A DNA stretch of 64,000 nt from Escherichia coli (GTDB lineage Bacteria; Pseudomonadota; Gammaproteobacteria; Enterobacterales; Enterobacteriaceae): NCBI RefSeq assembly GCF_022846255.1, contig NZ_AP025682.1. One strand, given 5' to 3'. Below the pieces are notes generated by a model. That model had not been told where the DNA came from. It saw only the letters and a list, made by a program, of their open reading frames with translations, and searched no databases. Made by a program: the position numbers and the translations under genes. Shown piece by piece: positions 1-33,147 of the stretch (its first letter is position 1; every line of letters starts with the position of its first letter).

Positions 1-651
1 GTTGTCCTGCAAGGTGCCAAGCCCATCTTCGCCCGGCACGCCTTCGGTCGGCTGACCGCTGGCGGCGGTTTCCAGATAGAGGTTGTCGCCCTCGGCGGAA
101 AGCCCCGCCGGGTTGGCGAAGTTCACCAGCGTCAGTTGCCCTAACTCGGTCACGTCGCTGTCGCCGGGTAAGATCGCCGTCACCGTACCGTCCTCACCAA
201 ACGCGACGTTGGTCGCCCCCGCCGGAACGTCGATTTCCGGCTGCAACGGCAAGCCCTGCGAGTTGGTCAGTACGCCGTCAGCGTTCACCTGCAAGTTGCC
301 GTCGCGGGTATAAGCGATATCGCCGTTGGCCTTTTGCACCTGCAAAAATCCCAGCCCCATAATGGCGACATTCATCGCGTTGTCGGTGGTTTCGACGTTG
401 CCTTCGGTGAAGGTTTTCTGAGTGCCGACAATGCGTACGCCGCTACCGAATTGCAGCCCGGTCGGCATAATGTTGTTCTGATCGAGCATCGCGCCCGGCG
501 CTTCCTGGGTCTGGTAAAACAGATCCTGAAACATCACCCGGTCGCGCTTAAAGCCTGTGGTGTTAACGTTGGCGATGTTGTTGGCAATCGCGCTCATTTC
601 AGCATCCTGCGCTGAGAGGCCGGTTTTGCTGATCCATAGTGCTGCGTTCAT
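1..651 (-). CDS. lfgG: Flagellar distal rod protein FlgG (Flag-2 lateral system), 3' end beyond window
   Basis: Reverse-strand ATG at 649-651 translates MNAALWISKTGLSAQDA..., a typical FlgG/rod N-terminus; open to window edge; not in ORF track because truncated. Confidence 0.8.
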   Translation of the reverse strand, partial: MNAALWISKTGLSAQDAEMSAIANNIANVNTTGFKRDRVMFQDLFYQTQEAPGAMLDQNNIMPTGLQFGSGVRIVGTQKTFTEGNVETTDNAMNVAIMGLGFLQVQKANGDIAYTRDGNLQVNADGVLTNSQGLPLQPEIDVPAGATNVAFGEDGTVTAILPGDSDVTELGQLTLVNFANPAGLSAEGDNLYLETAASGQPTEGVPGEDGLGTLQDN

Positions 652-729: not shown

Positions 730-1467
730 TTACGAGCCGCGCAATAAGCGGTTGCCCGCGTCGCTGATATCTTCGGCGGTTTTCATCATCTTGATCTGCG
801 CTTCGAACTGGCGGTTCATGGCGATGGACGACATCATCTCACTCACCGCCGAGACGTTGCTGCCCTCGAGAAAACCGCCGCTGACTTTGATGTTTTCATC
901 GCGCTGGGCCGGAACGCCGTCGGCAGTCACCAGCATCCCTTCAGGATTTTTCGCCAGGTTAGCGACCGGAATATCCACCAGCTTCAGGCGGTCGATATCC
1001 ATCGTCGCGGTCACGTCGCCGTCATCGGGCGTCACCGACAGCGTGCCGTCGCTGCCAAAAGAGGCGATGGCGTTCGGCGGCAGAATAATCGGCCCGTTAT
1101 CCCCCAGCACCAGATTGCCGTCGATGGTCAGTTGCCCCTGGTCGTCCTGCTGAATGTTGCCGTTGCGGGTATAGACTTCGTTGCCGTTTTTATCCTGCAC
1201 CGCAATGTAACCCGCGCCCTGAATCGCCACGTCCAGCGGGCGTTCGGTTTTCTCCGCCACACCCGTGCTGTCGTTCACGCCGCTGGCCCCTTCCTGCGCC
1301 ATATAGCGAGTGTCGAAGCCGCCGCCTTTCACCTTGTCATTGGTCGCCATTGCCATATCGGCGCGAAAACCGTTGGTGTTGACGTTCGCCAGGTTGTTGG
1401 CGCTAATCTGCTGCTCATACAACGTCTGAGAAGCCCCGCTCAGGGCGGTATAAATCAAGCGATCCAT
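730..1467 (-). CDS. lfgF: Flagellar proximal rod protein FlgF
   Basis: 245 aa; MDRLIYTALSGASQTL...NNLANVNTNGFRAD rod N-terminal motif and conserved C-terminus; 1-nt overlap with upstream flgE stop. Confidence 0.85.
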   Translation of the reverse strand: MDRLIYTALSGASQTLYEQQISANNLANVNTNGFRADMAMATNDKVKGGGFDTRYMAQEGASGVNDSTGVAEKTERPLDVAIQGAGYIAVQDKNGNEVYTRNGNIQQDDQGQLTIDGNLVLGDNGPIILPPNAIASFGSDGTLSVTPDDGDVTATMDIDRLKLVDIPVANLAKNPEGMLVTADGVPAQRDENIKVSGGFLEGSNVSAVSEMMSSIAMNRQFEAQIKMMKTAEDISDAGNRLLRGS

Positions 1468-2669
1468 TACATTGCCTGGAACAGCGCGTCATCGAGCTGC
1501 GTGCTGGTGGCGATCACTTTGGTGTTGGCCTGATAGTTACGCTGGGCGGTCATCAGGTTAACCAGTTCGCTGGTAATATCGACGTTAGAGCTCTCAAGCG
1601 CTCCCGACGTGAGCGTGCCGCAGGTTCCGGAACCGGGAACACCAATCAGTGGCGTGCCGGATTCCCCGGTTTGTACCCACGCGGTACCGCTTACGGCTTG
1701 CAGGCCGTCGTCGTTAGGGAAAGTCGCCAGCACCACCTGGCCCTGCAACATGCGCTCGCCGTTGCTGTAGGTGGCGTAAACTTTGCCATCGTCATCGACC
1801 TGCACACCGTTCTGAGTCGCGGAGGCGTAGCCGTCGGCGGCGTTGGTGGTGACAGAAAATTCAGAACCGTATTGCGTACAGGTGGAGTAATCGACGGTCA
1901 AATCGATGGGCGCGGCGGCGTCGGTCTGAAACTCAATGGTCTGCGGCGTGGTTGGCGAAGTCAGCTTCCCGGTGTTCGGGTCGAAGGTTAACGTCGTCGC
2001 CGGAACGCCGGTCTGCTGCTGACCGTCGAAGGTGTACTGCACTTCCCAGGTGTTGTCGCTGGTTTTGGTGAAGTACTGGCATACCGAGTGTTCGTTACCT
2101 AATGAGTCGTACACCGTGGTGGTGTAGCTGTCGGTGTACGAGCTGCTGTTGGTCGCGTCGAACGGTACGGTAGTGCGGTCGATAGCGTCGTCGCTGGCAT
2201 CGAAGTTGGCGGTAAAGGTCAGGCTGCTACTGGCCTGCGCCGGAATATTGCCAGTTTTGATCTGGATATCGGTGACTGTACCGGTTTGCAGAGTGCCCGT
2301 GTCATCGACCGGATAGCCCTGCAAATAAGCGCCCGAGGCGTTGACGATATAGCCGTTTTTGTCGGTTTCAAACGATCCAGCGCGGGTATAAGAAATGTTG
2401 CCCGCGCTGTCGCAGGTAACAAAAAAACCGTCGTCGTTAATCGCCAGATCCAGCGCGTTACCAGTGGAGACCAGCGAACCGCCGCGCGAAATACTTTGCG
2501 CGGTGCCCGCCACGCTGACGCCCATCGCCTGGCTTCCGGCATACATGGCGGAAAACTGGGTGGTCATCGACTTATAGCCCACCGTTCCGGCGTTAGCGAT
2601 GTTGTTACTGATCCCGTCGAGCTGTTCGTTAACGGCATTCAGCCCCGTTGCGGCAATTTCATAACTCAT
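1467..2669 (-). CDS. lfgE: Flagellar hook protein FlgE
   Basis: 400 aa; N-terminus GLNAVNEQLDGISNNIANAGTVGYK and C-terminal NVDITSELVNLMTAQRNYQANTK hook/rod signature. Confidence 0.85.
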   Translation of the reverse strand: MSYEIAATGLNAVNEQLDGISNNIANAGTVGYKSMTTQFSAMYAGSQAMGVSVAGTAQSISRGGSLVSTGNALDLAINDDGFFVTCDSAGNISYTRAGSFETDKNGYIVNASGAYLQGYPVDDTGTLQTGTVTDIQIKTGNIPAQASSSLTFTANFDASDDAIDRTTVPFDATNSSSYTDSYTTTVYDSLGNEHSVCQYFTKTSDNTWEVQYTFDGQQQTGVPATTLTFDPNTGKLTSPTTPQTIEFQTDAAAPIDLTVDYSTCTQYGSEFSVTTNAADGYASATQNGVQVDDDGKVYATYSNGERMLQGQVVLATFPNDDGLQAVSGTAWVQTGESGTPLIGVPGSGTCGTLTSGALESSNVDITSELVNLMTAQRNYQANTKVIATSTQLDDALFQAM

Positions 2670-2692
2670 TGTTTCTTCCTGTTAATTGATTC

Positions 2693-3406
2693 TTACGCCA
2701 CATCACTGTCGGCATCGGGTACGCCAAACTGGCTAATCATGGTGAACGGCACTTCACCTACACCTGCAACGTTAAGTACCGGGGAGCTGCCGTCGAGCGG
2801 GATGCGCACATCTTCCACTTCGCCGGAGACTTCAATCGGTACCTCTTCTTCCCCGGTGTTGGTCACCACCGAGACGTCGTAATCGCCCGGCGGGATGCCG
2901 TAATCCGCCGGATTAATCGAGAAATCGACCTGGCCTGGCCCAACCGACGAACTCCCTTCCGGGATCAGCGAGACGGTGTAGTCATCGCCCGCAGCATCGG
3001 TAAAGTGGAGATCGGCGGTGGTACAGGCGTCATCCAGCGTGGCGCGACCGTTAATGGTCTGATCACTCACCTGCAAGGCGGTGGTCTGCACCATAATGTC
3101 GTCGCCCACCAGATTGCCGAGCGCCATCACCTGAATGTTGCTCATCAGCACCGCGTTGGTGTTGGCCTGCACGCTCATCTCTTCCATCATCGCCACCTGC
3201 GCCATCGAAGAAAGCTGGTCGATATATTCGGTGGCGTCAGTCGGGTCGGTCGGGTCCTGGTTTTGGATCTCAGCGACAAACAGCGTCAGGAAGGTATCGA
3301 CGGGCGAGCTATCGCTGCTACTTTGCGTGTCGCTGGCCGCCACGTTGTTGCTTTCCGCCGTGGCGGTCGGCTGCGGCGATTGCGCATTCAGCGCCAGGGT
3401 ATTCAT
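2693..3406 (-). CDS. lfgD: Hook capping/assembly protein FlgD
   Basis: 237 aa; FLTLFVAEIQNQDPTDPTD motif characteristic of FlgD. Confidence 0.8.
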   Translation of the reverse strand: MNTLALNAQSPQPTATAESNNVAASDTQSSSDSSPVDTFLTLFVAEIQNQDPTDPTDATEYIDQLSSMAQVAMMEEMSVQANTNAVLMSNIQVMALGNLVGDDIMVQTTALQVSDQTINGRATLDDACTTADLHFTDAAGDDYTVSLIPEGSSSVGPGQVDFSINPADYGIPPGDYDVSVVTNTGEEEVPIEVSGEVEDVRIPLDGSSPVLNVAGVGEVPFTMISQFGVPDADSDVA

Positions 3407-3837
3407 CAGGCTTCTCCCAGTTTCAGCAGGCTTTGCTGCATACTTTTCACGTTGTTGAGCACATCGACATTGGTTTCAAAATCGCGCGAGGCCGACATCA
3501 TGTCCGCCATCTGTTCCACCACGTTGACGTCGGGATACCAGACATCCCCGTTAGCATCGGCGAGCGGCGAATGTGGTTCATAGCGTTTCACCGCCCCGCC
3601 GGTTTGCAGCACGTCCTGCACCTGCACGCTGGCACCGTCAATGGCGTGGCGATGCGTTCCCGCCAGCAAGCTGTTGTGATACACCGCCGCAAACACCGGG
3701 CTGCGCGCTTTATACGCCTGCGCCTCGCTGCTGGCGGGCGCATTGGCATTCGCCAGGTTACTGGCAACGGTATTCAGACGCAGCGTTTGCGCCGTCATCG
3801 CCGAGCCGGAAATCTGATAGATATCAGTAAATGACAT
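3406..3837 (-). CDS. lfgC: Flagellar basal-body rod protein FlgC
   Basis: 143 aa; LRLNTVASNLANANAP rod motif; position between flgB and flgD. Confidence 0.85.
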   Translation of the reverse strand: MSFTDIYQISGSAMTAQTLRLNTVASNLANANAPASSEAQAYKARSPVFAAVYHNSLLAGTHRHAIDGASVQVQDVLQTGGAVKRYEPHSPLADANGDVWYPDVNVVEQMADMMSASRDFETNVDVLNNVKSMQQSLLKLGEA

Positions 3838-3839
3838 GC

Positions 3840-4205
3840 TTATTTCCCTTCAATGGCCTCTCTGATGCCGCTGATTTGCAGATTCAGAAAGGTCAGACTG
3901 CTTTGATAATCCATACTATTTTGTGAAAACCGCGCCTGTTCGCTGTTCAGTTCCACGGTGTTGCCATCTTCCGACGGCTGCATCGGCACGCGGTACTGGA
4001 CATCCACCGCCGCGTTATTTGCCCGTTGCATCTCCCTGGCAAAATCAATATCTTTAGCCTTGAAATTTGGCGTATCGACGTTCGCCAGATTCGCAGTCAG
4101 TAGCTCGGTCCTCTCAAGACGTAACTTCACTGCCTGCGGATGCACTCCCAATGCCTGTTGAAAACTGATCCCCATTTCTTGCGTCACTCCTGCTTCAATC
4201 CGCAT
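3840..4205 (-). CDS. lfgB: Flagellar basal-body rod protein FlgB (true start probably the internal ATG at 4175)
   Basis: ANLANVDTPNFKAKDIDF rod motif; the sigma-54 promoter at 4212-4227 leaves too little leader for the 4205 start; a GGAG RBS precedes the ATG at 4175. Confidence 0.8.
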   Translation of the reverse strand: MRIEAGVTQEMGISFQQALGVHPQAVKLRLERTELLTANLANVDTPNFKAKDIDFAREMQRANNAAVDVQYRVPMQPSEDGNTVELNSEQARFSQNSMDYQSSLTFLNLQISGIREAIEGK

Positions 4206-4211
4206 ACGCTA

Positions 4212-4227
4212 AGCAATCGCCGTGCCA
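4212..4227 (-). promoter_or_regulatory. Sigma-54 (RpoN) -24/-12 promoter for the lfgBCDEFG operon
   Basis: Reverse complement reads TGGCACggcgaTTGCT, a perfect TGGCAC-N5-TTGCW match; a sigma-54 activator (lafK) is encoded in the same locus. Confidence 0.6.
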
Positions 4228-4256
4228 TTTTTTAAGTGACTGATGAGAAAAGGTTT

Positions 4257-4994
4257 ATGAGTTTTCAATTTTGCAGGCGGAAGTTTTATTTCCTCCTGGC
4301 GCTGGCCTTACCGGGCTACGCCGCCGTCCATCCCGTGCAACATAGCGCGCGGGAACAAGTCAACGCCCAGGTGCTGAATGCCGCCAGCCAGCAGATTGAA
4401 TCGCTAGCGCAGCAGCGGCAGTGGCATGACTATCGCTACACCTTTAAGGTCTACATTCCCTCGCAGATTTCGACTGCCGCGCCCTGCGCTACGGCCCCCG
4501 GCGTCACGCTGACTTCGCCTGCGGAAATCGCTCTCAACCGGATGAACTTCACCGTCAGTTGCCCGCAAAGCTGGCAGATGAACGTCGCGGTGCGCCCGGA
4601 TGTTCTGGTACCGGTGGTGATGGCAAAGTCACTGGTTGCCCGCGATACGCCGCTCACGGCAAATGATGTGGAGCTGAAGCCCTACAACGTCAGCGCCCAG
4701 CGTCGCGATGTGTTGATGGAGCTTGATGACGCGATTGGTTTCAGCAGTAAACACGCGTTGCAGCCGGGCAGGCCAATCACCAAAGAAGAACTGATATCTC
4801 CGGTGCTGGTCGAGCGCGATCAACCGGTGATGATTGTTTACCAGAGCGCGGGGATCAGCGCCTCGCTGCCCGGCGTGGCGCTGAAAAATGGTCGTAAGGG
4901 CGAGATGGTGAAAGTGCGTAACGCCAGCAGCCAGCGGGTCATCAGCGCGATGGTGGCAGAAAGCGGCGTGGTGACGACGGTAAGCGCGGAGTAA
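4257..4994 (+). CDS. lfgA: Flagellar P-ring assembly chaperone FlgA
   Basis: ORF from 4236 (GTG) with likely ATG start at 4257; signal-peptide-like N-terminus; divergent from flgB as in flg loci; C-terminal SAF-like region. Confidence 0.75.
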   Translation: MSFQFCRRKFYFLLALALPGYAAVHPVQHSAREQVNAQVLNAASQQIESLAQQRQWHDYRYTFKVYIPSQISTAAPCATAPGVTLTSPAEIALNRMNFTVSCPQSWQMNVAVRPDVLVPVVMAKSLVARDTPLTANDVELKPYNVSAQRRDVLMELDDAIGFSSKHALQPGRPITKEELISPVLVERDQPVMIVYQSAGISASLPGVALKNGRKGEMVKVRNASSQRVISAMVAESGVVTTVSAE

Positions 4995-5794: not shown

Positions 5795-5882
5795 CGACAA
5801 TTCCTTCCGCCATCGCGGAAACGGATTTTCCGCCTGATTCTCAATCCCTTGTTTTTGATTACAAAAATTCCCGGCACGCTTA

Positions 5883-6851
5883 TTGCACATTCCGCAAAGT
5901 AATAAAGACTGGAAGCCACCTATGAGTTTTATTGAATGTTACGAACCGGAATACGTGCGCAATTTTATGACGCAATATCCCGATTCGCCTTTGTACGTCC
6001 GCAAGGTCTGGAAGAATGAGATTCGCCAGAGCCTGGCATTGACCGATATTGAAAGTTGCAAAGCGGTGCTCAACGATGCCAGGGCCTTTGATTTACAGCT
6101 CACCTACCGCCCTGTGGAAGACAATGCCGCCGAGCTATCCGCGCGCGATGCGATAGTAAACCAGGCCATTTTGAGCACCCTTACGCTCCCCGATTTAACC
6201 CCGGAGCTTTCCCTGTATGCCGTCGGGATTTTGCTCTCCCGCGCCAGTAAAATGCCGGGCAGAGACGGAGATATTCTTGCCCGCTTGACGACGCTGCCAC
6301 AGGCGCTGGGGGATCATGCACAAAAAGGCACGCTACAGGCACAGTTCGCCCAACTCCCACCCGTGCCACAACTGGCGCGCCAACTGGTGACGCTGCTCGG
6401 GAGTTTTGCGTTTGACTGGTCGATTTTGCCGGAAAGCCCGCGCAAAGCCTCGCTACCGTTGCAGGTGACTTTGCTGACGTTGCATGACGCCAACAGCGAA
6501 GCTTTGTTGCAACAGCAGCTTAAGGTGCAGTGGCAAACCACCTGGCAACAGCATTTTGCCGCCGCGCCGTGGATGATGCGCAACTGGCTGATTTACCGAG
6601 TTTATCACGACGTGATTGGGCAGGCAGACGGAGCAGATTATTGCCCGCTGGTGTGTGATTTTTATCTCATCCGCACGTTAATCAGTTTATGGACGCTGGA
6701 TGGTTCTGCGCTGCGGCAGGAGGATATTTTCGCCCTCTTTGCCATGTTTGAACGCTGGCGGACCAGTGAAAATGCGCTGTTTATTCGCCAGCAAATTCAG
6801 TCGTTATGTGCCGCAGAGCCGCTGCTGTCAGCGTTTTCGCTGCTGACGTGA
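5883..6851 (+). CDS. Hypothetical protein in the Flag-2 variable region
   Basis: 322-aa ORF with no recognisable motif; located between lfgN and the glycosyltransferase gene. Confidence 0.5.
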   Translation: MHIPQSNKDWKPPMSFIECYEPEYVRNFMTQYPDSPLYVRKVWKNEIRQSLALTDIESCKAVLNDARAFDLQLTYRPVEDNAAELSARDAIVNQAILSTLTLPDLTPELSLYAVGILLSRASKMPGRDGDILARLTTLPQALGDHAQKGTLQAQFAQLPPVPQLARQLVTLLGSFAFDWSILPESPRKASLPLQVTLLTLHDANSEALLQQQLKVQWQTTWQQHFAAAPWMMRNWLIYRVYHDVIGQADGADYCPLVCDFYLIRTLISLWTLDGSALRQEDIFALFAMFERWRTSENALFIRQQIQSLCAAEPLLSAFSLLT

Positions 6852-7029: not shown

Positions 7030-9474
7030 ATGCCAACACCGACCATCATCAAAACACTCGCCACCCACCGCGAAAAACCGTTCGTCAGCGTCGTCACGCC
7101 AACCTGGAACCGCGGCGCATTCCTGCCGTACCTGCTTTATATGTACCGCTATCAGGACTACCCGGCAGACCGCCGCGAACTGGTCATCCTCGACGATTCC
7201 CCGCAAAGCCATCAACACATCATCGACCGCCTGACCAATGGCACGCCGGAGTCCTTCAACATCCGCTACATCCATCACCCGGAAAAACTGCCGCTGGGCA
7301 AAAAACGCAACATGCTCAACGAACTGGCGCGCGGCGAATACATCCTCTGCATGGACGATGACGACTACTACCCGGCAGATAAAATCTCTTACACCATCGC
7401 TATGATGCAAAAAAACCGGGCGCTCATCTCCGGTTCCGACCAGATCCCCATCTGGTACAGCCACATCAATCGCATCTTTCAAAGCCGCAGCTTCGGCCCG
7501 CATAACATCCTCAACGGCACCTTTTGCTATCACCGTAACTACCTGAAAAAGCACCGCTACGATGACGATTGCAATTTAGGCGAAGAGAAAAGTTTCACCG
7601 ACAATTTCAGCGCTAACCCGCTACAACTGCCCGGCGAGCGCACGATTTTGTGTATCTCGCACAGCCACAACACCTTTGATAAAGACTTTATCCTCGGGGC
7701 CAGCACGCCTGTAAACGCGGCGCTTACGGATATCGTCAGCGATCCGCTGCTACGCAACGCTTATCTGGGTCTGCATAACGCCACTCATTATCAGGCGATC
7801 CAGCATCAGGCGATCGATCAGATCGTTCTGCTGAATCTGGATAAACGCCCGGATCGCTTACAGCAGATCCGTGAAGAACTGACATTGCTGCATATTCCGC
7901 CTGAGAAGATCACCCGCCTTGCCGCCAGTGAAAATGAAAACGGTCAACGGGGCCGCCAGCAATCACACTTGCAGGCGCTGCATCTGGCGCAACAGCACGG
8001 CTGGCAAAACTATCTGCTGCTGGAAGATGACGCGGTTATTCTCAAACAGGAGAAACATATTCAGGTGCTGAACGCGCTGCTGGCGAGCCTGGCGAAAATT
8101 CCCTGGCAGGTGATGATCCTCGGCGGCGAAATTTCGCAGGGAACGATGCTAAAAAGTTTGCCTGGGCTGGTGCACGCGCGGGACTGCCGCAAAGTGTGCG
8201 CTTATCTGGTGAACAGCCGCTACTACCTGCAGCTGGCGCAGCAGATGAACAACGATGAGCATTCGCTGGAAGGCGGCTGGCAGCCGCTGCTGCGCACCGA
8301 CAAATGGCTGGCCTGTTACCCGAGCCTTTGTTATCAGCGACCGGGCTTTAGTGATATCGAGAAAAAAGCGACTGATAACATTAACCACTACTTCAATAAG
8401 TTACCCGTAGCCACCAAGCCATCTACATTACCTATCGCCGATACCATCGGCTTTTTTATGGAAACCTCATTCCACTACGCGCTCTACCGCCCAATCATCA
8501 CTGCCCTACAGGCGCAAGGACAAAGCTGCACGCTGGTGATCAACGACCGCGTGTTTAAACCGTTTCTGGATGAAATGCTGAATACGTTAAAAAGCATCGA
8601 CGATCCACAGCTCAAAGGAATGCGCTTATCGGAAATGCAGGCACACGGTCAGCGAGTAAAATGCCTGGTCAGCCCCTATCACACGCCTGCGCTCAGTGGC
8701 CTTTCCCCCCTGAACATTCGCGCCATGTACGGCTTAGCCAAAGAAACGTGGAACCACGCCGACTGGAACCGTTTTTATCAGCGCATTTTGTGTTACAGCC
8801 ACTACAGTCAGCGGGCGCTGGCACATTTCGGCAGCGCAAAAGTGGTCGGCAACCCACGCTTCGACGCCTGGCATAACGGCACGTTCGACCGCGCTCTGCC
8901 GGAAAATATCCAACCCGATTCCCGTAAACCTACGGTGCTCTATGCCCCCACGTTTGGCGCATTAAGCTCCCTGCTCCACTGGGCAGAAAAATTGGGGCGT
9001 TTGAGCGGCGATGTGAACCTGATTTGCAAACTGCACCACGGCACCTGCTCGCGCCCGGAAGAAGCCGCATCGCTGGCACTGGCGCGCAGGCATTTAAAAC
9101 AGCGCACCGACTCTGCCCGCCACACGCTGGCGCTACTGGCAAAGGCCGATTACGTGCTCACCGATAACAGCGGGTTTATTTTCGATGCTATCCACGTTGA
9201 TAAACGGGTGATCCTGCTCGACTTTCCGGGCATGACGGAACTGCTCGACGGTGAGAAAAGCTACTCCACGGCAGAGAGCGCCGACCAGCGAATCCGCGAA
9301 ATATTGCCGGTGGCTCATGATGTTGCGGAACTGCGTTACTTATTGTCAGAGGTATTTGACTGGGGGGCGGTTCAGACGCGGCTTACGGAAATTCGCCATC
9401 ACTATTGCGATGCGTTTATGGATGGCAAGGCGGGAGAACGAGCGGCGTTGGTGATTGTGGAGGCGTTGGGGTAA
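7030..9474 (+). CDS. Multidomain glycosyltransferase: N-terminal GT2-like, central GT25-like, C-terminal CDP-glycerol glycerophosphotransferase (TagB/TagF)-like
   Basis: N-terminus VSVVTPTWNR...LDDS and ILCMDDDDYY (GT-A/GT2 signatures); C-terminus VLYAPTF and VLTDNSGFIFDAIHVDKRVILL resemble TagF-family motifs; ORF from 6958, likely ATG at 7030. Confidence 0.6.
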   Translation: MPTPTIIKTLATHREKPFVSVVTPTWNRGAFLPYLLYMYRYQDYPADRRELVILDDSPQSHQHIIDRLTNGTPESFNIRYIHHPEKLPLGKKRNMLNELARGEYILCMDDDDYYPADKISYTIAMMQKNRALISGSDQIPIWYSHINRIFQSRSFGPHNILNGTFCYHRNYLKKHRYDDDCNLGEEKSFTDNFSANPLQLPGERTILCISHSHNTFDKDFILGASTPVNAALTDIVSDPLLRNAYLGLHNATHYQAIQHQAIDQIVLLNLDKRPDRLQQIREELTLLHIPPEKITRLAASENENGQRGRQQSHLQALHLAQQHGWQNYLLLEDDAVILKQEKHIQVLNALLASLAKIPWQVMILGGEISQGTMLKSLPGLVHARDCRKVCAYLVNSRYYLQLAQQMNNDEHSLEGGWQPLLRTDKWLACYPSLCYQRPGFSDIEKKATDNINHYFNKLPVATKPSTLPIADTIGFFMETSFHYALYRPIITALQAQGQSCTLVINDRVFKPFLDEMLNTLKSIDDPQLKGMRLSEMQAHGQRVKCLVSPYHTPALSGLSPLNIRAMYGLAKETWNHADWNRFYQRILCYSHYSQRALAHFGSAKVVGNPRFDAWHNGTFDRALPENIQPDSRKPTVLYAPTFGALSSLLHWAEKLGRLSGDVNLICKLHHGTCSRPEEAASLALARRHLKQRTDSARHTLALLAKADYVLTDNSGFIFDAIHVDKRVILLDFPGMTELLDGEKSYSTAESADQRIREILPVAHDVAELRYLLSEVFDWGAVQTRLTEIRHHYCDAFMDGKAGERAALVIVEALG

Positions 9475-15469: not shown

Positions 15470-16456
15470 TCAGGAGAAAACTTCGATACCGTGCTTGCGC
15501 ATGGAGGCCAGTCGATAGCGCAGTGCGCGCGGGGTAATGCCTAACAGGTCGGCAATTTTGCTGCGGTTGCCCTGATATTTACGCATCAGGTCGGCGATAT
15601 ATTGATACTGCGCACTTCGTCCGGCCTGGCCTAAATCGCTGGTTTCCGCAACAGATACGGAGGGCTGAACAGGCCATTGCAGTTCACTGTGATCGGCAAC
15701 GTCTATTTCCGGCAGGCCTAAGGCATCCGGGAAAATCACGCCGTCGCGGTTTAAAATCATTCCCCGCTGAATGGCGTTCTCCAGCTGACGCACGTTGCCG
15801 GGCCAGCGGTAATTGAGCAGCGCCCGGCGGGTAGATTCTGAAAGGGTGATATTTTTCACCAGCACCGTGGAGTATTTTTTAATAAATGACTCTGCCAATG
15901 GAATAATATCGTTCAGACGTTCACGCAGCGGCGGCATGGTAATAGGAATTACCGCCAGACGATAATAGAGATCTTCACGAAAACGCCCGGCGGCAACTTC
16001 CTGTTCAAGGTTTTTATTGGTACAGGCAATCAGGCGAAAATTGAGTTTAATTTGTCGGTTGCTGCCTAATCGCTCAACCTGTTGTTCCTGCAACACGCGT
16101 AATATTTTGGCCTGAAGCGCCAGCGGCATATCGCCAATTTCATCGAGTAATAAGGTGCCGTTATTCGCCAGTTCCATTTTTCCTGGCACGCTGGCAATTG
16201 CGCCGGTAAATGCACCTTTGTCGTAGCCAAATAAGGTAGATTCCAGCATATTTTCCGGGATCGCCGCGCAGTTCACGCCGACATAGGGTGCGCTTTCATT
16301 TTCACCAAAGGCTACGGTGTGAATATATTTTGCCACGCACTCTTTGCCCGCGCCGGTTTCGCCCTGAATGAGCACCGGCACGTTAAATGCGGCGACACGC
16401 TTTGCCAGAGTAAAAGCGTTAATGCTGGAAGCGGCAGTTGCAATAAGTTCAGACAT
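15470..16456 (-). CDS. lafK: Sigma-54-dependent transcriptional activator (LafK-like), AAA+ plus HTH only, no receiver domain
   Basis: Walker A GETGAGKE, GAFTGA sigma-54 contact motif, C-terminal HTH; only 328 aa and begins directly at the AAA+ domain. Confidence 0.8.
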   Translation of the reverse strand: MSELIATAASSINAFTLAKRVAAFNVPVLIQGETGAGKECVAKYIHTVAFGENESAPYVGVNCAAIPENMLESTLFGYDKGAFTGAIASVPGKMELANNGTLLLDEIGDMPLALQAKILRVLQEQQVERLGSNRQIKLNFRLIACTNKNLEQEVAAGRFREDLYYRLAVIPITMPPLRERLNDIIPLAESFIKKYSTVLVKNITLSESTRRALLNYRWPGNVRQLENAIQRGMILNRDGVIFPDALGLPEIDVADHSELQWPVQPSVSVAETSDLGQAGRSAQYQYIADLMRKYQGNRSKIADLLGITPRALRYRLASMRKHGIEVFS

Positions 16457-16584
16457 AGGGTGAACGATATAAGTAGCGACATTAATCAGGATGTTCTGAA
16501 GCGTATCACCGGTGGGATTAACAAGTTCGAATTAAACGATAATAAAAATATTATTTGTTTATAAACAATGAGTTATAACCGCAG

Positions 16585-16663
16585 GCCGGATAAAGCGTTT
16601 ACGCCGCATCCGGCAATCGTGCACCGGTGCCTGATGCGACGCTGCGCGTCTTATCAGGCCTAC
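16585..16663. repeat. REP elements (two units)
   Basis: gccggataaagcgtttacgccgcatccggc and gtgcctgatgcgacgctgcgcgtcttatcaggcctac. Confidence 0.7.
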
Positions 16664-16842
16664 AGTTCGTGCAATGTTTTATGACGATGCCCTATATCTC
16701 GCCCGTTAATAATTTAATTATTTTTTCACCCTATTAATAATTTGCCCCTTTCACTCCCCCTCTATTTAATACCTCACCTTGTGTCACTGCCGGATTTGCG
16801 TGCACAAAATCGCCCATACCATTACAGCAGAGAAAGTAAGCC

Positions 16843-32985: not shown

Positions 32986-33147
32986 TGAGGAATATCTCAA
33001 TTTTTAAACATAAAATGCGAATTATTTAGTACAAAAAAGCAGCGTTACGTGATCTTTCCCTGACTGTGTAGGAAAACAGGTTTCCAAGCCCTTCCGAACC
33101 ATTCATGCCTGCAAACAAAAGCAGCTGCGGCGGCACCGCACTACCAC

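What the first reader, a model, noticed from the sequence alone, without database searches (positions are those of the whole stretch)
4173..4257. Perfect sigma-54 promoter in the 50-bp lfgB-lfgA divergent region implies a shorter FlgB
The minus strand reads TGGCACggcgaTTGCT at 4212-4227. The predicted transcription start (~4200) lies inside the longest flgB ORF (start 4205), so the real start is probably the ATG at 4175, which has a GGAG RBS. This ties the rod/hook operon to the locus-encoded sigma-54 activator.
Basis: seen in the sequence. Interest (0 to 1): 0.4.

Follow-up and report, generated by a model that had tools for sequence, protein, structure and literature searches.

The report
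Sigma-54 promoter of lateral-flagella rod operon
The motif is a real, deeply conserved sigma-54 promoter that drives the rod/hook operon of the second (Flag-2, lateral-type) flagellar system. It confirms the shorter FlgB start that databases already use, so the finding is correct but largely expected. The one new lead is a conserved palindrome upstream that looks like the binding site of the activator LafK.

Summary
Observation confirmed. TGGCACGGCGATTGCT lies on the minus strand at 4227..4212. It is the only exact consensus match and the top PWM hit (19.6 bits; next 12.4) in the 64-kb window. The window is an Escherichia Flag-2 locus.

An equivalent TGGCAY-N5-TTGCW site lies 30-82 nt upstream of the conserved lfgB start in all 80 species examined (74 score at least 15 bits), and in Vibrio campbellii.

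The predicted start of transcription is about 4201. This puts the ATG at 4205 outside the mRNA. Orthologues all begin at M/V-G/S-I-S-F, which is ATG 4175. The upstream ATG is absent or out of frame in relatives. RefSeq already annotates the 111-aa form.

An intact LafK (AAA+ with GAFTGA, plus HTH_8, no receiver domain) lies at 15470-16456. In Aeromonas and Vibrio the orthologous flgB_L promoter is experimentally LafK- and RpoN-dependent.

New here: a palindrome GGAA-N7-TTCC (4279-4293, inside lfgA codons) sits about 51 nt upstream of the -24 element in most of the loci. It recurs about 40 nt upstream of two other Flag-2 sigma-54 promoters (window 5872-5887, and PlafB). It is held at the DNA level, not the protein level. 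It is probably the LafK enhancer.

The promoter finding is ordinary. The enhancer is a modest new lead.

The parts
4212..4227 (-). Sigma-54 (-24/-12) promoter core TGGCACGGCGATTGCT. GG is at 4226/4225 and GC at 4214/4213.
   Evidence: 19.6 bits, best in the window. Conserved in 80 of 80 orthologous loci.
4200..4202 (-). Predicted start of transcription, 12 +/- 1 nt downstream of C(-12) at 4213.
   Evidence: Inference from the standard geometry of sigma-54 promoters. Not mapped.
4176..4201 (-). Predicted 26-nt 5' UTR with Shine-Dalgarno AGGAG at 4191-4187.
   Evidence: AGGAG and its 11-nt spacing to the start codon are conserved in Escherichia, Citrobacter, Phytobacter and Pseudescherichia.
4176..4205 (-). 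10-codon 'extension' of the longest ORF, judged non-coding.
   Evidence: The ATG is absent outside Escherichia/Pseudocitrobacter. A 4-nt indel occurs in L008. There is no protein conservation.
3840..4175 (-). lfgB (Flag-2 FlgB, proximal rod), 111 aa, true start ATG 4175.
   Evidence: Alignment A1. PGAP annotation in E. coli. PF00460.
730..3837 (-). Downstream genes of the operon: lfgC 3406-3837, lfgD 2693-3406, lfgE 1467-2669, lfgF 730-1467. lfgG runs off the left end of the window.
   Evidence: Overlapping or closely abutting ORFs. Annotation of the E. coli counterpart.
4279..4293 (.). Palindrome GGAAGTTTTATTTCC (GGAA-N7-TTCC), the candidate LafK enhancer (UAS). It lies 51 nt upstream of TGGCAC, centred at about -94 from the predicted start of transcription, inside lfgA codons 8-13.
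   Evidence: The same element occurs at two other Flag-2 sigma-54 promoters and in Vibrio.
4228..4251 (.). Conserved AT-rich block between the palindrome and the -24 element (lfgB sense: TTTTCTCATCAGTCACTTAAAAAA). It resembles an IHF site (WATCAANNNNTTR). In Citrobacter it reads CATCAATCACTTA.
   Evidence: Anchored information content of 0.5-1.5 bits at -21..-15 and -8..-3 and the alignment. The IHF role is inference only.
4257..4994 (+). lfgA (P-ring chaperone), divergent from lfgB. Its first codons carry the palindrome.
15470..16456 (-). lafK, a 328-aa sigma-54 activator: AAA+ domain with GAFTGA, plus a C-terminal HTH_8. It has no receiver or sensor domain.
   Evidence: 48% identical to V. 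campbellii LafK, with the recognition helix conserved.
5817..5887 (+). Second composite element. Palindrome GGAAACGGATTTTCC (5817-5831) lies 40 nt upstream of the sigma-54-like CGGCACGCTTATTGCA (5872-5887). It precedes ORF 5922-6851 and the glycosyltransferase at 7030-9474.

Best explanation
The site at 4212-4227 (minus strand) is the sigma-54-dependent class II promoter of the Flag-2 rod/hook operon lfgBCDEFG....

Proposed mechanism:
- RpoN-RNA polymerase binds the -24 GG and -12 GC and forms a closed complex.
- The locus-encoded enhancer-binding protein LafK (AAA+ with the GAFTGA loop, HTH_8, no regulatory domain) binds the palindrome GGAA-N7-TTCC at 4279-4293, inside the start of lfgA.
- LafK contacts sigma-54 across the conserved AT-rich, IHF-like spacer and uses ATP to open the promoter.
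- Transcription starts at about 4201. The 26-nt leader carries AGGAG, and translation begins at ATG 4175, giving a 111-aa LfgB.
- The ATG at 4205 lies upstream of the start of transcription and is not used.

Shown here: the motif, its conservation, the conserved protein N-terminus, the intact LafK, and the shared palindrome.

Inferred: the position of the start of transcription, RpoN and LafK dependence in this organism, LafK binding to the palindrome, and IHF involvement.
For: - Exact consensus and best PWM score in the window.
- In 80 species from about 30 genera the best site within 200 nt upstream of lfgB is TGGCAY-N5-TTGCW. 74 of 80 score at least 15 bits, against 4.8-14.8 bits for the best site elsewhere in each 3.3-kb locus.
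- Anchored information content is 1.9-2.0 bits at T, GG, C, A and TGC, and 0.1-0.7 bits in the spacer.
- N-terminal alignment places the start at ATG 4175. The upstream ATG is not conserved and is frameshifted in L008. PGAP annotates 111 aa.
- LafK is intact.
- The palindrome is present exactly in 70 of 81 loci, plus 9 with one mismatch, at 48-62 nt in Enterobacterales. The background rate is 0.04 per 150 nt.
- The encoded residues vary (R/G/W/V/M/L, then L/P/R) while the bases are fixed. The Phe codon is TTC in 60 of 60 loci, against 48% in the rest of lfgA. Arg is always CGG or AGG, against 17%.
- The same palindrome lies 40 nt upstream of the sigma-54 sites at 5872 and at E. coli PlafB. In V. 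campbellii it lies 41 nt upstream at PlfgB and 53 nt upstream at PlafB.
- Published data: A. hydrophila PflgB_L falls from 970 to 20 MU in a lafK mutant (PMC5013049). RpoN shifts the V. parahaemolyticus flgB2 promoter ATGGCACGTATCTTGTTTG in EMSA, and flgB2 is down in the rpoN mutant (PMC9817140).
Against: - There are no transcription data for Escherichia Flag-2. The system is often regarded as cryptic or conditionally expressed.
- The Shine-Dalgarno spacing of 11 nt is longer than optimal.
- The palindrome overlaps lfgA coding sequence at constant phase in Enterobacterales, so a protein-level constraint cannot be wholly excluded from those loci alone.
- No LafK binding site has been defined experimentally in any paper I could read.
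- No sigma-54 site was found upstream of lafK/lfiE or lfiM, so LafK does not control the whole locus.
Confidence: 0.88

Rival explanations
1. The promoter is a real sigma-54 promoter, but it is activated by an enhancer-binding protein other than LafK. Alternatively, LafK acts from solution without the palindrome, and the palindrome binds some other factor or serves lfgA.
For: LafK binding was not tested. Some flagellar activators work without enhancers, such as H. pylori FlgR, cited in PMC3162934. Plesiomonas lacks LafK yet expresses lateral genes via FlaK.
Against: - LafK has an intact HTH_8 whose recognition helix is conserved between Vibrio and Escherichia.
- The palindrome tracks sigma-54 promoters at helical-phase spacings of 40/41 and 51-53 nt in two distant genera.
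- lafK mutants abolish PflgB_L in Aeromonas.
Confidence: 0.08
2. The 121-aa ORF from ATG 4205 is the true LfgB, expressed from another promoter further upstream inside lfgA.
For: The ORF is open from 4205 in Escherichia and Pseudocitrobacter. Some metagenome gene callers chose longer forms.
Against: - The extension is not conserved and is absent or out of frame in relatives.
- There is no Shine-Dalgarno sequence before 4205.
- No sigma-70-like promoter was found on that strand.
- PGAP uses the short form.
Confidence: 0.02
3. The motif is a chance match with no promoter function.
For: An exact consensus match occurs in 15 of 100 shuffled windows.
Against: Its position and orientation, its conservation in 80 of 80 loci with a variable spacer, and the experimental precedent in orthologous systems.
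Confidence: 0.01
4. The GGAA-N7-TTCC palindrome is a by-product of LfgA signal-peptide coding (K-x-x-F) and not a DNA element.
For: In Enterobacterales it is always in the same reading phase. K and F are invariant residues.
Against: - The flanking codons change amino acid but keep the palindrome bases, and Phe is TTC in 60 of 60 loci.
- The element is intergenic in L085, at E. coli PlafB and at window 5817.
- It is in another phase and at another distance in Pseudomonas flexibilis and Serpens.
Confidence: 0.07

Closest known systems
PflgB_L, the class II lateral-flagellar promoter of Aeromonas hydrophila AH-3 and Vibrio parahaemolyticus (flgB2/VPA0264)
   Same: - Orthologous gene and divergent flgA/flgB layout.
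- Same -24/-12 sequence: ATGGCACG....TTG in V. parahaemolyticus and ATGGCACGGCGATTGC here.
- The same upstream palindrome in the closely related V. campbellii.
- LafK and RpoN dependence has been shown in those species.
   Different: - Escherichia LafK lacks the N-terminal receiver-like domain of Vibrio LafK: 328 versus 444 aa.
- The -12 element here is the full TTGC, where Vibrio has TTGT.
- The palindrome is 51 nt upstream here, against 41 nt in Vibrio, and lies inside lfgA codons.
- No expression data exist for Escherichia.
PspF-type (class Ic) enhancer-binding proteins and their promoters
   Same: LafK consists of an AAA+ domain plus an HTH and has no sensory domain (PMC3162934). The promoter has a palindromic upstream site and an AT-rich, IHF-like spacer.
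   Different: The target sequence is different. No trans-acting negative regulator equivalent to PspA is known for LafK.
FlhDC-dependent class 2 flgB promoter of the primary (Flag-1) flagellar system of E. coli and Salmonella
   Same: It drives the same kind of operon (flgBCDEFGHIJ), divergent from flgA.
   Different: Flag-1 uses sigma-70 with FlhD4C2. Here a sigma-54 promoter is used, with no FlhDC box.

Membership tests
Sigma-54 (RpoN) -24/-12 promoter | GG and GC dinucleotides exactly 10 nt apart, within TGGCAC-N5-TTGCW | tested here: met
   TGGCACGGCGATTGCT at 4227..4212. PWM score 19.6 bits.
Sigma-54 (RpoN) -24/-12 promoter | Located upstream of a gene, in the correct orientation, at a plausible leader distance | tested here: met
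   C(-12) lies 37 nt before ATG 4175. The range in 80 loci is 30-82 nt.
Sigma-54 (RpoN) -24/-12 promoter | Core elements conserved in orthologous loci while the spacer varies | tested here: met
   74 of 80 loci score at least 15 bits, and all 80 keep GG-N10-GC.
Sigma-54 (RpoN) -24/-12 promoter | A cognate AAA+ enhancer-binding protein with the GAFTGA loop is available | tested here: met
   LafK at 15470-16456. PF00158 E=1.9e-64. GAFTGA, Walker A and Walker B are present.
Sigma-54 (RpoN) -24/-12 promoter | Upstream enhancer (UAS) for the activator | tested here: inconclusive
   The candidate palindrome 4279-4293 is strongly conserved and shared by three promoters. Binding was not tested.
Sigma-54 (RpoN) -24/-12 promoter | Transcription abolished without RpoN; start of transcription about 12 nt after the -12 GC | not testable with these tools
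   Needs 5'-RACE or dRNA-seq and an rpoN mutant. rpoN is not in the window. Its presence in Escherichia is established knowledge.
LafK-dependent class II lateral-flagellar promoters | Orthologous operon and a LafK orthologue in the same flagellar locus | tested here: met
   Gene order matches Flag-2. LafK is 48% identical to V. campbellii LafK.
LafK-dependent class II lateral-flagellar promoters | Loss of promoter activity in a lafK mutant | not testable with these tools
   Shown only for A. hydrophila.
FlgB rod protein (PF00460) | N-terminal Flg_bb_rod motif, and a start at the family's conserved N-terminus | tested here: met
   PF00460 hit at residues 17-39 of the short form. Alignment A1 begins at M-G-I-S-F.
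IHF-assisted sigma-54 promoter | IHF consensus WATCAANNNNTTR between the UAS and the -24 element | tested here: inconclusive
   The window reads CATCAGTCACTTA (2 mismatches) and Citrobacter reads CATCAATCACTTA (1 mismatch). The block is moderately conserved.

The most novel reading that the evidence does not exclude
GGAA-N7-TTCC is the so far undefined DNA target of LafK. Its defining properties would be:
- It is conserved from Vibrio to Escherichia.
- It is placed in two helical-phase classes, about 40 and about 51 nt upstream of the -24 element.
- At PlfgB it is written into the first codons of the divergent gene lfgA, so that codon choice in lfgA is dictated by an enhancer for the neighbouring operon.

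The composite element would define a small LafK regulon:
- the lfgB operon;
- the lafB-to-lafS (sigma-28) operon;
- in Escherichia, the variable-region operon with the 309-aa unknown protein and the flagellin-type glycosyltransferase.
Probability: 0.6. Interest if true: 0.5.

Novelty: new member of a known kind. Interest (0 to 1): 0.33.

Why it matters
The result places the Escherichia Flag-2 rod/hook operon in the same RpoN/LafK class II tier as the lateral flagella of Vibrio and Aeromonas. It also confirms the current 111-aa gene model.

The practical gain is a precise, testable promoter-plus-enhancer map for a system whose expression conditions in E. coli and its relatives are still unknown. 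The candidate LafK site allows three things:
- prediction of the regulon from sequence;
- design of reporters;
- clean separation of coding and regulatory roles by synonymous mutations in lfgA.

It also suggests that the variable-region glycosyltransferase operon is switched on together with hook-basal-body genes.

Tried and rejected
- Key primary papers were not held, so what they say about these promoters could not be checked: Ren 2005, Stewart and McCarter 2003, Wilhelms 2013, Gode-Potratz 2011.
- One literature search was too broad. A focused one found no paper that defines a LafK binding site.
- The repeat finder with a 6-nt seed found no inverted repeat near the promoter, because the half-sites are only 4 nt.
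- The sigma-70/terminator scan gave nothing relevant for lfgB or lfgA. Rfam gave nothing.
- PWM and pattern scans found no sigma-54 site upstream of lafK/lfiE or lfiM.
- The V. breoganii plasmid locus (L089) and metagenome locus L086 showed no convincing sigma-54 site. Their gene context or composition differs.
- The A. caviae hit (L090, 40% identity) was not pursued because it is probably the polar flgB.
- Palindromes inside lfgE and lfgD in some genera have conserved spacers and were judged to be coding coincidences.
- My notebook figure of 76/80 loci with at least 15 bits was a miscount. The table gives 74/80.

Full report
**What the window is**

Positions 1 to about 23,000 are an Escherichia Flag-2 (lateral-type, secondary flagellar) locus.
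- The 3-kb stretch around the finding matches 1279 of 5426 complete E. coli genomes, the best at 97.7%.
- The 211-nt promoter region itself is 95-99% identical in 1243 of them.
- The annotated E. coli counterpart gives this gene order: lfgG-F-E-D-C-B on the minus strand; then lfgA-M-N, a hypothetical gene and a glycosyltransferase on the plus strand; then lfiJ-I-H-G-F-E-lafK on the minus strand; then lfiMNPQR-lfhBA on the plus strand.

**The observation**

- The minus strand reads TGGCACGGCGATTGCT at 4227..4212.
- An exact match to TGGCAC-N5-TTGCW is expected 0.15 times per window, so on its own it proves little.
- A PWM was built from 16 published V. parahaemolyticus RpoN sites (PMC9817140, Table 2, read), leaving out the orthologous site. 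It gives 19.6 bits, by far the best in the window. The next best is 12.4 bits, and shuffled-window maxima average 14.5 +/- 1.9.
- The site falls in the right orientation in the short gap upstream of lfgB.
- The longest ORF starts at ATG 4205, and the next ATG is at 4175. AGGAG lies at 4191-4187.

**Conservation of the promoter**

- A scan of one genome per species returned 80 loci that encode an LfgB relative. They include Escherichia, Citrobacter, Yersinia, Serratia, Pantoea, Enterobacter, Rosenbergiella, Tatumella and Mangrovibacter. They also include Pseudomonas flexibilis, Serpens, a Lysobacteraceae MAG and Methylomonas.
- In every locus the best PWM site within 200 nt upstream of the conserved start is TGGCAY-N5-TTGCW or a close variant.
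- 74 of 80 sites score at least 15 bits. The best site anywhere else in each 3.3-kb locus scores 4.8-14.8 bits.
- The distance from C(-12) to the start codon is 30-82 nt. It is 37 nt in the window and its close relatives.
- Sixty-five non-redundant sequences were anchored on the site. Information content is 1.9-2.0 bits at T, GG, C, A and at TGC, but only 0.1-0.7 bits in the spacer. That is the signature of selection on a -24/-12 promoter.

**The start codon**

- With C(-12) at 4213, transcription should begin at about 4201, so ATG 4205-4203 lies at -4 to -2 and is not in the mRNA. This is inference from standard sigma-54 geometry.
- Independently, orthologues from many genera all begin at M/V-(G/S/A)-I-(S/T)-F, which aligns with ATG 4175. 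The occasional longer database entries have unrelated extensions.
- The upstream ATG exists only in Escherichia and Pseudocitrobacter. It is absent in Citrobacter and Phytobacter. In Escherichia sp. MOD1-EC7003 a 4-nt length difference puts it out of frame.
- AGGAG and its 11-nt spacing to the start are conserved.
- RefSeq/PGAP already annotates the 111-aa protein, and its cluster holds 629 member sequences.
- The 'shorter FlgB' is therefore right, but it is not new.

**The activator**

- lafK (15470-16456, minus strand) encodes 328 aa.
- It has a sigma-54 interaction domain (E=1.9e-64), an AAA lid and HTH_8.
- It has Walker A GETGAGKE, GAFTGA and Walker B LLLDEIGD, and no N-terminal regulatory domain.
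- This is the class Ic architecture listed for LafK, PspF and HrpRS by Francke et al. (PMC3162934).
- V. campbellii LafK is 444 aa and has a receiver-like N-terminus. It is 48% identical over the shared part, and the HTH recognition helix (RALRY[R/K]LA[S/A]MR) is nearly unchanged.

**Published precedent**

- In A. hydrophila AH-3, PflgB_L is the reference class II promoter. Its activity drops from 970 to 20 Miller units in a lafK mutant (PMC5013049).
- In V. parahaemolyticus, RpoN shifts the flgB2 (VPA0264) promoter, whose predicted site is ATGGCACGTATCTTGTTTG. flgB2 is down in an rpoN mutant (PMC9817140).
- The fliM_L operon is reported not to be LafK-dependent (PMC3930126). That fits the absence of any sigma-54 site in the lafK-lfiM gap of the window.

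**A candidate enhancer**

- The anchored profile showed two further conserved blocks, GGAAA at about -70 and TTCC at about -55 from the T of TGGCAC.
- In the window this is GGAAGTTTTATTTCC at 4279-4293, which lies 51 nt from TGGCAC.
- GGAA-N7-TTCC occurs 4 times in 64 kb, against 1.12 expected, and 0 of 100 shuffles reach 4.
- A second copy (5817-5831) lies 40 nt upstream of a second sigma-54-like site, CGGCACGCTTATTGCA (5872-5887). That site precedes the hypothetical ORF at 5922-6851 and the glycosyltransferase.
- In E. coli MS 21-1 a third copy lies 40 nt upstream of TTGGCACGCCTTTTGCC, in front of lafB (fliD-like).
- A composite search (palindrome, 36-66 nt, sigma-54 core) hits only these places: two in the 64-kb window, and three in about 78 kb of MS 21-1.
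- Across the lfgB loci, 70 of 81 carry an exact GGAA-N7-TTCC. In Enterobacterales it lies 48-62 nt upstream of the promoter, mostly 51-54 nt. Nine more have TTCA as the second half. The background rate is 0.04 per 150 nt.
- The N7 spacer is essentially random.

**Evidence that the constraint acts on DNA, not protein**

- In Enterobacterales the element lies in lfgA codons at a fixed phase.
- The first codon is CGG, AGG, GGG or TGG (Arg, Gly or Trp), or xTG in the one-mismatch variants.
- The codon after Phe is CTx, CCx or CGx (Leu, Pro or Arg).
- Phe is TTC in 60 of 60 loci, against 48% TTC in the next 600 nt of lfgA.
- Arg uses only CGG or AGG, against 17% elsewhere.
- In Pseudomonas flexibilis, Serpens and the Lysobacteraceae MAG, the element is 107-108 nt upstream and in another phase.
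- In a metagenomic relative (L085) it is intergenic.

**The same architecture in Vibrio**

- In V. campbellii chromosome 2, the palindrome occurs as TTCC-N7-GGAA-N7-TTCC, 41 nt upstream of TGGCATGCATCTTGT at PlfgB.
- It also occurs 53 nt upstream of AGGCACACATCTTGC at PlafB.
- These are the only two composite hits in 50 kb.
- The two spacing classes (40/41 and 51-53 nt) differ by one helical turn, as expected for an activator that must face the closed complex.

**The segment between the palindrome and the -24 element**

It is a conserved AT-rich segment that resembles the IHF consensus. The window reads CATCAGTCACTTA and Citrobacter reads CATCAATCACTTA. This is a suggestion only.

**Verdict**

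- The promoter is a new member of a well-known kind, the LafK/RpoN class II lateral-flagellar promoters.
- The gene-model correction is already in public annotation.
- The added value of this second look is the shared palindromic element, which is probably the LafK enhancer. It overlaps lfgA coding sequence and also marks PlafB and the variable-region glycosyltransferase operon.

**Confidence**

| Claim | Confidence |
|---|---|
| The site is a functional sigma-54 promoter with the short LfgB start | about 0.9 |
| The palindrome is the LafK site | about 0.6 |

Noticed in passing
window 5817-5887 (+), upstream of ORF 5922-6851 and the glycosyltransferase at 7030-9474: A second palindrome-plus-sigma-54 composite: GGAAACGGATTTTCC, then 40 nt, then CGGCACGCTTATTGCA. 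It is identical in E. coli MS 21-1. It suggests that the variable-region genes (an unknown 309-aa protein with no Pfam hit, and a large glycosyltransferase) are co-regulated with the rod/hook operon.
   Followed up: partly
L084 19519-19600 (-), E. coli MS 21-1, upstream of lafB (fliD-like): A third composite: TTCCGCC-N3-CCGGAAAC-N5-TTTCCGCC, 40 nt upstream of TTGGCACGCCTTTTGCC (16.7 bits). The lafB operon contains the sigma-28 gene, so this would link LafK to the class III tier. The same arrangement occurs in V. campbellii (L092, about 34159, minus strand).
   Followed up: partly
window 16457-16842 (lafK-lfiM divergent gap): No sigma-54-like site on either strand. The gap contains REP/BIME-like palindromic units at about 16580-16670. 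The promoters of lafK-lfiE... and of lfiM... remain unidentified.
   Followed up: partly
window 4176-4256: No recognisable sigma-70 or sigma-28 promoter for lfgA. The lfgA start codon is only about 30 nt from the -24 element of PlfgB, and the candidate enhancer lies inside lfgA, so it is unclear how lfgA is transcribed.
   Followed up: partly
L034-L067 (Enterobacter, Lelliottia, Kluyvera, Mangrovibacter and similar loci), about 870-920 nt upstream of PlfgB, in the lfgA-lfgM gap: Another GGAAG-N5-CTTCCGC palindrome. It lies just downstream of a sigma-28-like -10 (GCCGATAA-like) and about 60 nt before the lfgM start. No sigma-54 site follows it. It is absent from the window. Its role is unknown.
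   Followed up: partly
window 224-238 and 33071-33085: Two further exact GGAA-N7-TTCC palindromes. One is inside the flagellar rod genes and the other lies outside the locus. Neither has a sigma-54 site nearby, so they are probably chance.
   Followed up: no
L001 2535-2693 compared with window 2670-2692: E. coli MS 21-1 has about 136 extra nt between lfgD and lfgE compared with the window and with E. coli SMS-3-5.
   Followed up: no
L004 and L007 (Pseudocitrobacter vendiensis and P. faecalis): These genomes carry an lfgB region almost identical to the Escherichia one (100% and 99% LfgB identity, same leader). This suggests recent transfer of Flag-2, or a mislabelled assembly.
   Followed up: no
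L091 336-350 (V. campbellii motY_L coding region): A palindrome GGAAGTTTTATTTCC, identical in sequence to the window's. It encodes G-K-F-Y-F-R. No sigma-54 core was found downstream.
   Followed up: no
PLSDB records NZ_CP050465.1 and NZ_AP026896.1: A 2.06-Mb Vibrio campbellii replicon (chromosome 2) and a 4.9-Mb Aeromonas caviae replicon are filed as plasmids in the plasmid collection.
   Followed up: no
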